Shown piece after piece: positions 36,008 through 39,000 of a stretch of DNA of 64,000 nt. Numbering within the stretch: position 1 is the first letter of the stretch; every line of letters starts with the position of its first letter. Source of the DNA: Escherichia coli O157:H7 (GTDB lineage: Bacteria > Pseudomonadota > Gammaproteobacteria > Enterobacterales > Enterobacteriaceae); assembly GCF_013167455.1 (NCBI RefSeq), contig NZ_CP038328.1; one strand, written 5' to 3'. The position numbers are program-made.

Positions 36008-39000
36008 TGGTACGCGAGCTGGGTTTAGAACGTCGTGAGACAGTTCGGTCCCTATCTGCCGTGGGCGCTGGAGAACTGAGGGGGGCTGCTCCTAGTACGA
36101 GAGGACCGGAGTGGACGCATCACTGGTGTTCGGGTTGTCATGCCAATGGCACTGCCCGGTAGCTAAATGCGGAAGAGATAAGTGCTGAAAGCATCTAAGC
36201 ACGAAACTTGCCCCGAGATGAGTTCTCCCTGACCCTTTAAGGGTCCTGAAGGAACGTTGAAGACGACGACGTTGATAGGCCGGGTGTGTAAGCGCAGCGA
36301 TGCGTTGAGCTAACCGGTACTAATGAACCGTGAGGCTTAACCTTACAACGCCGAAGGTGTTTTGGCGGATGAGAGAAGATTTTCGGCCTGATACAGATTA
36401 AATCAGAACGCAGAAGCGGTCTGATAAAACAGAATTTGCCTGGCGGCCTTAGCGCGGTGGTCCCACCTGACCCCATGCCGAACTCAGAAGTGAAACGCCG
36501 TAGCGCCGATGGTAGTGTGGGGTCTCCCCATGCGAGAGTAGGGAACTGCCAGGCATCAAATTTAGCGTGCTGATATGGCTCAGTTGGTAGAGCGCACCCT
36601 TGGTAAGGGTGAGGTCCCCAGTTCGACTCTGGGTATCAGCACCACTTTTTAGGTTAAAGTTCGGCAGATTAGAAAAGAATTTGTCTGGCGGCAGTAGCGC
36701 GGTGGTCCCACCTGACCCCATGCCGAACTCAGAAGTGAAACGCCGTAGCGCCGATGGTAGTGTGGGGACTCCCCATGCGAGAGTAGGGAACTGCCAGACA
36801 TCAAATAAAACAAAAGGCTCAGTCGGAAGACTGGGCCTTTTGTTTTATCTGTTGTTTGTCGGTGAACACTCTCCCAACCAGGACAAATCCGCCGGGAGCG
36901 GATTTGAACGTTGCGAAGCAACGGCCCGGAGGGTGGCGGGCAGGACGCCCGCCATAAACTGCCAGACATCAAATCAAGCGAAAGGCCATCCGAAAGGATG
37001 GCCTTTATGCTTTTCGAACTAACATTCAATTAATGGATTACCTGCGATAAAAATGCCCTCGTACGCTCTGACTTAGGATGCGCAAAAAACTCATCCGGTG
37101 CAGCTTGCTCCACTATTTCGCCACGATCCATAAAAATCACCCGGTCAGCGACGGTTCGCGCAAACCCCATCTCATGGGTTACACACAACATTGTCATACC
37201 CGATTGCGCCAGCCCAATCATCGTATCCAGCACCTCTTTCACCATCTCCGGATCGAGCGCCGATGTGGGCTCATCAAACAACATAATTTTCGGCTTCATA
37301 CACAGCGAGCGCGCAATGGCAACGCGTTGCTGCTGACCACCTGAAATCTGTCCGGGAAACTTATGCGCATGTTCGGCAATTCTCACCCGCTCAAGGTAAT
37401 GCATCGCCAGAGCTTCAGCCTCTTTCTTTGGCATCTTGCGTACCCAAATCGGTGCCAGGGTACAGTTCTGTAGAACGGTCAGATGAGGGAAGAGATTGAA
37501 ATGCTGAAAGACCATTCCCACTTCCTGCCTGACGCGCTCAATATTGCGGATATCTTCATTAAGTTCGATGCCATCTACCACGATCCGTCCCTGTTGATGT
37601 TCTTCCAGATGATTAATACAACGAATGGTTGTCGATTTACCGGAACCTGAAGGGCCACACAGAACGATCCGTTCTCCCGGTTGCACGGTTAAATTTATAT
37701 TTTTCAAAACATGGAATTGTCCATACCATTTATTGACGTTTTCCAGCGTAATCATCGCGTTAGCAGGTTGCAGTAAAATTTGGCTCATAGTGTCCTCAAT
37801 GCGGTGTACGCCCGGTGTTAAAACGTTTTTCCAGATGCTGGCTATAGCGCGACATGCTGAAACAGAAGATCCAGTAGATCAGCGCGGCGAAAACATACCC
37901 TTCCGTCGACATACCCAACCAGGCGGGATCAACGGTTGCTTGCTGAACGCTACTGAAAAGATCGAACAACCCGATAATGATCACCAGGCTGGTATCTTTG
38001 AAGAGTGCGATGATGGTATTTACCAGCCCAGGAATTACCAGCTTCAACGCCTGTGGCAGAATAACCAGCCCCTGAGTTTTCCAGTAACCCAACGCCAGCG
38101 ACTCTGCCGCTTCATATTGCCCTTTAGGCAGCGCCTGTAATCCACCTCGCACGACTTCCGCAACATATGCTGACTGAAACAGGATCACGCCAACCAGCGC
38201 GCGGATCAGTTTGTCGATACTGGTGCCTTCTGCCATAAACAAAGGCAGCATGACCGAAGACATAAACAGAACGGTAATCAGCGGCACGCCGCGCCAGAAT
38301 TCGATAAAAATGACCGATAAGATGCGCACAATCGGCATATGGGAGCGGCGACCTAACGCCAGTAAGATCCCCCACGGTAGCGCCCCCGCAATCCCAACTG
38401 ATGCAATAATTAAAGTTAGCGTCAGCCCGCCCCATTGCCGGGTTTCAACCCGCTCAAGAGCAAAAAAACCGCCATACATCAGCCACCAGACAATCAGTGG
38501 GTAAATCACTGCCCAGACCGCAATATAGCGACCGCGATGCGGGAGTATTTTCCAGAACATTGGTGCGATTGACACAAGGCCAATCAGTAATGCCAAGTTA
38601 ATTCGCCAGCGTTGGTCGTGTGGGTAAAGTCCATACATAAACTGACCAAATCGTTCGTGGATGAAGACCCAACAGGCACCGGCTTTTGTGCAGTCGGCAC
38701 GCGTTGAGCCAACCCAGTTAGCCTGCAAAAATGCCCAGTTCAGCAACGGTGGGATCAGTTCCCACATCAACCATATGCAGCCAATAGTCAGCAGGCTATT
38801 GCTCCAGCTGGAGAACAGATTTTTTCGCACCCACACCATCGCGCGGCTTGAGTTATGGCTCGCCGGGCGCGAGGGATGAGACAGCAATACTTTTGTCATC
38901 ATGACTCCTTAGCGTTCCACGATCGCGATGCGGCGGTTATAGATATTCATCAGCAGCGAGATAGTCAGGCTGATAATCAGATAGACCGACATGGTCATGG

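What the first reader, a model, noticed from the sequence alone, without database searches (positions are those of the whole stretch)
36682..37014. rrnD-type operon with duplicated 5S gene and a vestigial third 5S 3-prime end before the distal terminator
The operon has the 16S, tRNA-Ile, tRNA-Ala, 23S, 5S, tRNA-Thr, 5S architecture. Beyond the second 5S and its terminator, the motif AACTGCCAGACATCAAAT (about 36957-36974) repeats the last 18 nt of 5S rRNA and its immediate 3-prime flank, directly before a perfect hairpin (36981-37006). This implies the distal terminator module arose by duplication of a 5S 3-prime end. The two 5S copies differ at a few positions (for example GCCTTAG versus GCAGTAG near the 5-prime end).
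Basis: seen in the sequence. Interest (0 to 1): 0.2.

Follow-up and report, generated by a model that had tools for sequence, protein, structure and literature searches.

The report
Known small-RNA gene between rrnD terminators
The repeated 18 bases are real, but they are the known end-repeat of rrF, a small-RNA gene between the two terminators of the E. coli rrnD ribosomal RNA operon, not a relic of a third 5S gene, so the finding is ordinary.

Summary
The window is E. coli O157:H7 rrnD (100% identity). It reads 16S, tRNA-Ile, tRNA-Ala, 23S, 5S, tRNA-Thr, 5S, then convergent yhdZ.

AACTGCCAGACATCAAAT occurs exactly at 36789-36806 (end of the second 5S plus 5 flank bases) and at 36957-36974, in front of the perfect T2 hairpin (36981-37006).

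- The 108 bases between T1 and the repeat show no 5S similarity.
- Those bases carry the conserved core of the "tRNA-linked repeats" (TLRs, the tyrT RtT family).
- Every TLR ends with 18-19 bases copied from the upstream tRNA or rRNA gene.
- This element is rrF. Its K-12 counterparts RrA, RrB and RrF were described in 2021 (PMC8144298) as small RNAs made by T1 read-through. That paper proposes RNase E processing at both copies of the 5S end and shows Hfq and CsrA binding.
- T2 directly abuts 5S in rrnG, and also in rrnD alleles that lack exactly the 168-bp unit. The extra piece is therefore T1 plus RrF body plus repeat, not T2.

Novelty: already known. Interest: low.

Side observations:
- About 27% of complete E. 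coli genomes lack the element entirely.
- Its 75-nt module with GGA-loop hairpins also occurs free-standing in Pseudomonas, Stenotrophomonas, Marinobacter, Alloalcanivorax and Pectobacterium.

The parts
31454..36344 (+). rrnD proximal genes: 16S (31454-32995), tRNA-Ile (33064-33140), tRNA-Ala (33183-33258), 23S (33442-36344)
   Evidence: Rfam gathering hits and ARAGORN; RefSeq annotation of the identical O157:H7 locus
36437..36556 (+). First 5S gene (rrfD), helix I with C3-G117
   Evidence: Rfam 5S 93.2 bits; sequence; one difference from K-12 rrfD
36569..36644 (+). tRNA-Thr(GGT), thrV
   Evidence: ARAGORN and Rfam
36682..36801 (+). Second 5S gene (rrfF), helix I with U3-A117
   Evidence: Rfam 5S 89.5 bits; sequence; one difference (A87) from K-12 rrfF
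36789..36806 (+). First copy of the 18-mer: last 13 nt of 5S plus CAAAT flank. The flank carries the published RNase E site, which gives the 5' end of RrB 3 nt after 5S
   Evidence: Exact match; RNase E site and RrB 5' end from PMC8144298
36805..36848 (+). Terminator T1: 20-bp hairpin followed by a T-rich tail; leaky in rrnB (87% termination)
   Evidence: Terminator scan; fold; efficiency cited in PMC8144298
36853..36863 (+). 5' arm of RrF (UGUUUGUCGGU). It is predicted to pair with the second 18-mer copy, forming a mimic of 5S helix I; 8 of 11 bases equal the 5S 5' end
   Evidence: MFE pair list; the same pairing is predicted in homologues from other genera
36884..36956 (+). RrF body: hairpin 36884-36906 (CGGGA loop), hairpin 36910-36922, mini-hairpin around CCCGGAGGG, hairpin 36935-36953 (AGGAC loop). 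It contains the TLR core at 36909-36933
   Evidence: Fold z=-10.3 and pair list; RtT hit; covariation in alignment A4
36957..36974 (+). Second copy of the 18-mer (the reported 'vestigial 5S end'): the terminal direct repeat of the TLR rrF and the proposed 3' processing signal
   Evidence: Exact match; hallmark of TLRs; rule re-verified in 83 of 110 loci
36802..36969 (+). The 168-bp unit (T1 + RrF body + repeat) that is present or absent as a block
   Evidence: Absent from K-12 rrnG and from rrnD of strains CUVET18-565 and KE21
36981..37015 (+). Terminator T2: perfect 11-bp hairpin 36981-37006 plus U-tract. It is also terminator-like on the minus strand, 24 nt after the convergent yhdZ stop
   Evidence: Terminator scan on both strands; ORF 37030-37788 minus strand; yhdZ annotation

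Best explanation
The 18-mer at 36957-36974 is the 3'-terminal direct repeat of rrF. rrF is the tRNA-linked-repeat (TLR) type small-RNA gene that lies between terminators T1 and T2 of E. coli rrnD.

Proposed working:
1. A minority of rrn transcripts read through the leaky T1 and stop at T2.
2. RNase E cuts in the CAAAU flank 3 nt after 5S. This releases 5S and creates the RrF 5' end.
3. Downstream, the second copy of the 5S end pairs with a complementary 5' arm (36853-36863). This rebuilds a stem like 5S helix I, followed by the same single-stranded CAAAU.
4. The same enzyme can therefore define the RrF 3' end.
5. The released RNA is about 173 nt and is trimmed to about 115 nt. It carries GGA motifs in hairpin loops and binds CsrA and Hfq.
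6. Its level therefore tracks rRNA synthesis.

As a by-product, the two 18-bp repeats allow precise loss of the 168-bp unit.

Basis of each step:
- Shown here: the sequence identity of the repeats, the predicted fold, family membership and the presence/absence polymorphism.
- From the literature (K-12): expression, mapped ends, and Hfq and CsrA binding.
- Inferred: that O157 RrF behaves the same way, and that RNase E acts at the second site.
For: Identity of the locus:
- 100% identical to O157:H7 rrnD.
- About 98% identical to the K-12 rrnD distal region, and the same layout as rrnA and rrnB.

Published description (PMC8144298):
- rrA, rrB and rrF are TLRs.
- The 18-bp repeat is shown in their Figure 1.
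- The RrB 5' end maps to the RNase E site 3 nt after 5S.
- 173-nt and 115-nt RNA forms were detected.
- Hfq and CsrA binding were shown.
- T1 terminates 87% and T2 100% of transcripts.
- The authors propose that the repeat is the RNase E signal.

Family membership tested here:
- Full-length RtT (RF00391) alignment, 24 bits, E 0.0099.
- The exact 25-27-nt core is shared with elements downstream of tRNA-Tyr, -Lys, -Pro, -Arg and 5S genes. In 83 of 110 cases the last 13 nt of that gene recur exactly within 120 nt 3' of the core.

Structure:
- The fold has z=-10.3.
- The repeat pairs with 36853-36863.
- The analogous closing helix is predicted in Tyr, Arg, Lys, Pro and 5S TLRs.
- The CAAAT flank after the second copy is kept in most genera whatever follows it: T2, tRNA-Thr or tRNA-Asp.
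Against: - Rfam's RtT model scores the element below its gathering threshold (24 against 45 bits).
- A sequence-only HMM built from tyrT units gave only E=1.2, although that was the top hit in the window.
- Nothing here shows that RrF is expressed or processed in O157.
- O157 rrF differs from K-12 at 36876, 36878 and 36879, and the T2 U-tract has an A at 37007.
- The published 3' end of RrB lies a few nucleotides beyond the position strictly equivalent to the 5S RNase E cut.
- Published phenotypes of deletion and overexpression are weak.
- About 27% of complete E. coli genomes lack the element, so any function is dispensable.
- The class-swap duplex control for the closing helix was clear for 4 of 5 arm types but not for tRNA-Pro.
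Confidence: 0.87

Rival explanations
1. Vestigial third 5S gene. A tandem 5S copy after T1 decayed and left only its last 13 nt plus flank; T2 is the terminator that came with that copy.
For: - The 18-mer is identical to the 5S end.
- The T1-to-repeat distance (108 nt) is almost exactly the rest of a 5S gene (107 nt).
- The 5' arm at 36853-36863 matches the 5S 5' end at 8 of 11 positions and pairs like helix I.
Against: - The interior is no more similar to 5S than shuffles are (p 0.16-0.87).
- There is no 5S covariance-model hit at E<=10.
- The interior is homologous to TLR cores next to four kinds of tRNA genes and to free-standing modules.
- The resemblance of the 5' arm to 5S follows automatically from its complementarity to the repeat.
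- T2 abuts 5S directly in rrnG and in rrnD alleles without the unit.
Confidence: 0.06
2. Footprint of a mobile insertion. A small non-autonomous element (T1 + body) inserted at the 3' end of 5S, and related elements inserted at tRNA 3' ends. Each insertion duplicated 18-19 bp of target, so the repeat is a target-site duplication rather than a functional signal.
For: - The unit is bounded exactly by direct repeats, and filled and empty sites both exist.
- The repeat always matches whichever gene lies upstream, across 5 gene classes.
- The core is dispersed over many loci and genera.
Against: - A target duplication does not explain why each element also carries an internal 5' arm complementary to its own repeat.
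- No transposase or integrase is associated with the elements.
- The rrnD element, with the rrnD-specific A117 in both copies, is also found in Citrobacter (L035, L059). The empty E. coli alleles are therefore more simply explained as deletions between the repeats.
- A mobilome study of K-12 reported no circular DNA from these regions.
Confidence: 0.1
3. Chance recurrence of an 18-mer in a GC-rich spacer.
For: None.
Against: - 0.08 matches are expected at up to 3 mismatches, 3 were observed, and 0 of 100 shuffles reached that number.
- The same repeat is conserved in K-12 rrnA, rrnB and rrnD and in many genera.
Confidence: 0

Closest known systems
rrF / RrF (with rrA, rrB) of E. coli K-12: TLR small-RNA genes between rrn T1 and T2 (Stenum et al. 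2021, PMC8144298)
   Same: - Orthologous position in rrnD.
- Same 168-bp unit, same 18-bp repeat carrying the rrnD-specific A, and same T1 and T2.
- About 98% identity.
   Different: - O157 has three clustered substitutions at 36876, 36878 and 36879 (AACC instead of GAGT), just 5' of a GGA motif.
- O157 has T to A at 37007 in the T2 U-tract.
- The O157 genome checked has only this one copy, against three in K-12.
rrnB T1-T2 dual terminator (Brosius et al. 1981, cited from PMC8144298; the terminator cassette of many cloning vectors)
   Same: The layout is 5S end, T1, about 108-nt spacer, 18-mer, T2, with the same spacing.
   Different: - rrnB has G, not A, at the position equivalent to 5S nucleotide 117 in both copies.
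- The flank after the second copy differs (TTAAGCAG against CAAGCGAA).
- The T2 loop differs (CTGACG against CGAAAG).
RtT RNA / tyrT 178-bp repeats (Rfam RF00391; Egan and Landy 1978, cited from PMC8144298)
   Same: - Lies downstream of a stable RNA gene and ends with a copy of that gene's 3' end.
- Shares the core CGTTGC..GCAACGRCCCGRAGGG.
- Has a closing helix between the 5' arm and the repeat.
   Different: - Only 24 bits against the RtT model, whereas the tyrT units score 133-138 bits.
- The flanking hairpins differ and carry GGA loops.
- The rrn unit includes an intrinsic terminator (T1).
- The period is 168 nt rather than 178 nt.
3'ETS-leuZ: a small RNA cut by RNase E from the 3' trailer of a tRNA operon (as described in PMC8144298)
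   Same: A small RNA released from the tail of a stable-RNA primary transcript by RNase E, so that its level follows stable-RNA synthesis.
   Different: - No sequence relationship.
- 3'ETS-leuZ acts by base-pairing as a sponge for other small RNAs.
- It has no copy of the upstream gene's 3' end.
RsmW (RF02809) and other CsrA/RsmA-titrating RNAs
   Same: Hairpins with GGA in the loop. The free-standing relatives of the RrF body give their best, but weak, Rfam hit to RsmW (21.8 bits, E 0.068).
   Different: - The window's rrF gave no RsmW hit at E<=10.
- There are only two to four GGA motifs, against 9-18 in CsrC and CsrB.
- Published CsrA affinity is lower than that of CsrB.

Membership tests
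tRNA-linked repeats (TLR; Rudd 1999 as described in PMC8144298) | Lies immediately downstream of a tRNA or rRNA gene, on the same strand and within the operon | tested here: met
   It starts right after rrfF (36801) and lies before the operon's last terminator, T2
tRNA-linked repeats (TLR) | 18-19 bp at its 3' end identical to the 3' end of the upstream gene | tested here: met
   The 18-mer at 36957-36974 equals 36789-36806 exactly. The rule was re-verified in 83 of 110 loci in other genomes
tRNA-linked repeats (TLR) | Sequence relationship to other TLR bodies | tested here: met
   The exact core pattern is shared with Tyr-, Lys-, Pro- and Arg-linked elements. A tyrT-only HMM places its top hit in the window on this core, but with E=1.2
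Rfam RF00391 (RtT RNA) | Score at or above the curated gathering threshold (45 bits) | tested here: not met
   24.0 bits, E 0.0099, full-length alignment over model positions 1-130. It is therefore a distant relative, not a member of the Rfam family as curated
RrA/RrB/RrF small RNAs | Orthology with K-12 rrF: same locus and near-identical sequence | tested here: met
   Alignments A2 and A3; synteny with yrdA upstream and yhdZ downstream
RrA/RrB/RrF small RNAs | Transcribed by T1 read-through and processed to defined RNAs of about 173 and 115 nt | not testable with these tools
   Shown only for K-12 in PMC8144298
RrA/RrB/RrF small RNAs | GGA motifs presented in hairpin loops; CsrA and Hfq binding | tested here: inconclusive
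   GGA occurs at 36881, 36895, 36928 and 36943. Those at 36895 and 36943 lie in predicted hairpin loops, and these loop GGAs are invariant in 19 related modules. Binding itself was not testable
5S rRNA gene or pseudogene | Recognisable 5S sequence or structure beyond the terminal 13 nt | tested here: not met
   Alignment scores are within the shuffle distribution. No RF00001 hit at E<=10 in 36802-37030
rrnB-type dual terminator | Two intrinsic terminator hairpins with U-tracts after the last 5S | tested here: met
   T1 at 36805-36848 and T2 at 36981-37006 were both found by the terminator scan. Termination efficiency was not testable

The most novel reading that the evidence does not exclude
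TLRs, including rrF, may be chimeras. In this reading a portable structured module is grafted between the two strands of the terminal helix of a stable RNA: 5S helix I here, and the acceptor/T-arm helix next to tRNAs. The cell's own rRNA and tRNA processing enzymes then release the module in proportion to stable-RNA synthesis.

For rrF, the module would be a 75-nt unit with GGA-loop hairpins. That unit also exists free-standing and in tandem arrays in Pseudomonas, Stenotrophomonas, Marinobacter, Alloalcanivorax and Pectobacterium. It would then represent an uncatalogued, Gammaproteobacteria-wide family of CsrA/RsmA-binding units.

The 18-bp repeats would additionally make the element a precise on/off deletion polymorphism within E. 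coli.
Probability: 0.25. Interest if true: 0.45.

Novelty: already known. Interest (0 to 1): 0.1.

Why it matters
As stated, the finding adds nothing new. The 18-bp repeat of the 5S end in front of T2 is drawn in Figure 1 of Stenum et al. 2021 (PMC8144298). According to that paper it has been recognised as the hallmark of tRNA-linked repeats since 1978 and 1999.

It does have practical relevance, for three reasons:
- The element is not annotated in RefSeq. No feature lies between rrfF and yhdZ in K-12 or O157.
- It falls below Rfam's RtT threshold, so automatic pipelines miss it.
- The homologous rrnB T1-T2 cassette, with its small-RNA gene, sits in many expression vectors.

The side results could interest people working on CsrA/Rsm regulation and on rrn operon evolution. 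These are the precise 168-bp presence/absence polymorphism, the absence of the element from about 27% of E. coli genomes, and the free-standing relatives of the RrF body outside Enterobacterales.

Tried and rejected
1. Is the whole T1-T2 spacer a decayed 5S? The length fits (108 against 107 nt), but local and global alignment scores against 5S lie within the shuffle distribution and there is no 5S covariance-model hit. Rejected.
2. A sequence-only HMM built from the K-12 tyrT repeat units and searched against the window. The top hit lies on the rrF core, but E=1.2, so it is not significant on its own. Homology rests instead on the Rfam alignment, the exact shared core and the shared architecture.
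3. Class-swap duplex energies, to test whether each TLR body pairs best with its own 3' arm. Own-class pairing was best for the Tyr, Arg, Lys and 5S arms, but not for the Pro arm, which is GC-rich and pairs well with several bodies. This is supportive, not decisive.
4. The A-for-G change in both 18-mer copies of rrnD as evidence of co-variation. It is shared by Escherichia and Citrobacter rrnD, so it may be a single inherited event. It cannot separate gene conversion from selection.
5. Older primary papers (Bosl and Kersten 1991; the original rrnD and rrnB sequence papers) are not held in the library. They are cited only through PMC8144298.
6. A K-12 mobilome preprint that mentions rttR gives no evidence of excision or circular forms.
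7. Rfam identification of the free-standing modules. Nothing was found at the gathering threshold or at E<=0.01. The only hit is a weak one to RsmW.
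Full report
**What is in the window.**
- Rfam and ARAGORN find 16S, tRNA-Ile, tRNA-Ala, 23S, 5S, tRNA-Thr(GGT) and 5S on the plus strand.
- The stretch 36640-37060 is 100% identical to E. coli O157:H7 genomes. There it is annotated as the rrnD distal end, between yrdA upstream and the convergent yhdZ downstream.
- The full 120-nt 5S genes are 36437-36556 and 36682-36801.
- The two 5S genes differ at five positions. Positions 3 and 117 form a compensatory C-G to U-A change in helix I; positions 12, 13 and 87 are predicted to be unpaired in the second copy.
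- Each copy differs from its K-12 counterpart (rrfD, rrfF) by one base.

- AACTGCCAGACATCAAAT is found exactly at 36789-36806 and at 36957-36974.
- It is found with one mismatch at the end of the first 5S.
- At up to three mismatches, 0.08 matches are expected by chance.
- The motif is the last 13 nt of 5S plus 5 nt of flank.
- T1 is a 20-bp hairpin at 36805-36848. T2 is a perfect 11-bp hairpin at 36981-37006.

**The same layout occurs in K-12.**
- The distal ends of all seven K-12 rrn operons were fetched and compared.
- rrnA, rrnB and rrnD all read: 5S, T1, a spacer of about 108 nt, the 18-mer, T2. The period is 168 bp.
- rrnG has 5S joined directly to a T2-type hairpin. It shares the downstream flank with rrnA, so it equals rrnA minus exactly one 168-bp period.
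- rrnC and rrnH have the flank TTAAGCAG after 5S. That is the flank that follows the second 18-mer in rrnA and rrnB.
- The second 18-mer plus what follows it is therefore an authentic 5S 3' junction. The unit between the two copies is the variable part.

**It is not a decayed 5S gene.**
- The spacer length (108 nt) fits the remainder of a 5S gene (107 nt).
- Its similarity to 5S is nevertheless no better than that of dinucleotide shuffles: local score p=0.87, global score p=0.16.
- A permissive Rfam scan of 36802-37030 gave no 5S hit.

**It is a tRNA-linked repeat.**
- The same scan aligned 36842-36964 over the full length of RtT RNA (RF00391). The score was 24 bits with E 0.0099, below the 45-bit gathering score.
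- The four units in the K-12 tyrT-tyrV operon score 133-138 bits, and each ends with the last 19 nt of tRNA-Tyr.
- Stenum et al. 2021 (PMC8144298) describe exactly this element:
  - The T1-T2 spacers of rrnA, rrnB and rrnD are the genes rrA, rrB and rrF.
  - They belong to the tRNA-linked repeats, of which K-12 has 22 copies at 10 loci.
  - The hallmark of that family is 18-19 bp at the 3' end identical to the 3' end of the upstream tRNA or rRNA gene.
  - Their Figure 1 marks the 18-bp repeat.
  - They report RNAs of about 173 and 115 nt, and a 5' end at the RNase E site 3 nt after 5S.
  - They report Hfq and CsrA binding, and a half-life of about 2.5 min.
  - They cite termination of 87% at T1 and 100% at T2.
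  - They propose that the repeat is the RNase E signal for the 3' end.

**Independent test of the family rule.**
- I scanned one genome per bacterial species for the core shared by rrF and the tyrT units, CGTTGC-N3-5-GCAACGRCCCGRAGGG. By my own estimate this pattern is not expected to occur by chance in a collection of this size.
- In 110 of the matches a stable RNA gene lies within 600 nt upstream on the same strand: 35 tRNA-Lys, 29 tRNA-Tyr, 18 5S, 16 tRNA-Arg and 12 tRNA-Pro.
- In 83 of those, the last 13 nt of that very gene recur exactly within 120 nt after the core.
- The 5S-linked elements come in two forms:
  - One has T1 and a period of about 168 nt, as in the window.
  - One lacks T1 and has a period of 136-139 nt. 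It lies between 5S and tRNA-Thr or tRNA-Asp, or before a terminator.
- The CAAAT flank after the second copy is retained in most of them, whatever follows.

**Structure.**
- The RNA from 36805 to 37015 folds far better than shuffles (z=-10.3).
- In the minimum-free-energy structure, the second 18-mer (36958-36968) pairs with 36853-36863, UGUUUGUCGGU. That arm matches the 5S 5' end at 8 of 11 positions.
- The ends of RrF therefore form a copy of 5S helix I followed by the same single-stranded CAAAU.
- Comparable closing helices are predicted in the tRNA-linked elements. Examples are GGGGAAGGAT with ATCCTTCCCC for Tyr, and GCACCAGGGAGGAT with ATCCTCCCGGATGC for Arg.
- In a class-swap control, four of the five arm types paired best with a body of their own class.
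- This supports the published idea that the repeat serves processing. It is also hard to reconcile with a simple target-site duplication.

**Polymorphism within E. coli.**
- The 108-nt body is found in 3944 of 5426 complete genomes, with a median of 2 copies. There is one copy in the O157 genome checked and three in a K-12 derivative.
- About 27% of genomes therefore have none.
- At rrnD itself, a quarter to a third of genomes give a match 168 bp shorter.
- In strains CUVET18-565 and KE21 the second 5S, with its A117, is joined directly to the rrnD-specific flank CAAATCAAGC and T2.
- Citrobacter rrnD-type loci also carry the unit with A in both copies (L035, L059). The filled state is therefore probably old, and the empty alleles are best explained as precise deletions between the 18-bp repeats. 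This is an inference.

**Verdict on the interpretation.**
T2 is the terminator that natively follows 5S. The inserted or lost block is T1 + RrF body + repeat.

**Seen in passing.**
- The 75-nt body of rrF (36884-36958) aligns over its whole length with free-standing units. These occur singly or in tandem arrays of 73-76 nt, away from stable RNA genes.
- They are found in Pseudomonas, Stenotrophomonas, Marinobacter, Alloalcanivorax and Pectobacterium.
- Helices 1 and 4 show covariation. Of the 24 pairs, 12 have changes on both sides. 91% of cells are paired, against 52% or less in the slid controls.
- GGA is invariant in both hairpin loops.
- Helices 2 and 3 lie inside the search pattern, so their invariance carries no information.
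- No Rfam family covers these units. The best hit is a weak one to RsmW.

**Novelty and score.** The finding as stated is already known, so interest is low (0.1). The side observations are leads, not part of the finding.

Noticed in passing
window 36802-36969; L130 and L131 (rrnD of E. coli CUVET18-565 and KE21): The 168-bp unit (T1 + RrF body + 18-mer) is a precise presence/absence polymorphism in E. coli. The body is found in only 3944 of 5426 complete genomes, with 1-9 copies and a median of 2. The O157 genome checked has one copy and a K-12 derivative has three. Some rrnD alleles join 5S directly to T2.
   Followed up: partly
window 36884-36958; L029, L030, L031, L115-L117 (Pseudomonas), L015/L048 (Stenotrophomonas), L069 (Marinobacter), L082/L083/L123 (Alloalcanivorax), L079/L101 (Pectobacterium): The RrF body is homologous over about 75 nt to free-standing units, single or in 73-76-nt tandem arrays, that are not next to tRNA or 5S genes. 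These units have four hairpins, with covariation in two of them, and invariant GGA in two loops. No Rfam family covers them; the best hit is a weak one to RsmW, 21.8 bits.
   Followed up: partly
L014, L081 (5S-TLR-tRNA-Thr); L040, L041, L102, L125 (5S-TLR-tRNA-Asp); L038, L070, L091: A second, shorter type of 5S-linked TLR has a period of 136-139 nt, no T1 hairpin and different flanking hairpins. It sits between 5S and the distal tRNA genes, or before a terminator, in Superficieibacter, Pseudocitrobacter, Siccibacter, Kluyvera, Phytobacter and some records labelled E. coli.
   Followed up: partly
TLR loci L011-L129 (Tyr, Lys, Pro and Arg classes): Each TLR carries an internal 5' arm complementary to its own copied 3' end, so the RNA closes with a helix resembling the acceptor/T-arm helix of the upstream tRNA (or 5S helix I). 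This argues against a simple target-site duplication.
   Followed up: partly
window 36981-37006 and 37030-37788 (minus strand): The T2 hairpin is palindromic and lies 24 nt beyond the stop codon of the convergent yhdZ. It was also scored as terminator-like on the minus strand, so it may end both transcription units.
   Followed up: no
window 36876, 36878, 36879 and 37007: This rrF allele differs from K-12 by three clustered substitutions just 5' of a GGA motif (AACC instead of GAGT). It also has an A that interrupts the T2 U-tract (TTTATGC against TTTTTGC). The body allele is not restricted to O157, because 100% matches occur in other strains.
   Followed up: no
window 33326-33434: StyR-44 (RF01830, 122.9 bits) lies in the spacer just upstream of 23S. 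This is a known element of enterobacterial rrn operons.
   Followed up: no
window 36849-36974; K-12 L002, L003, L007: Neither RefSeq annotation (K-12 or O157) nor Rfam at its gathering thresholds marks rrA, rrB or rrF, so this published small-RNA gene is invisible to standard annotation.
   Followed up: yes
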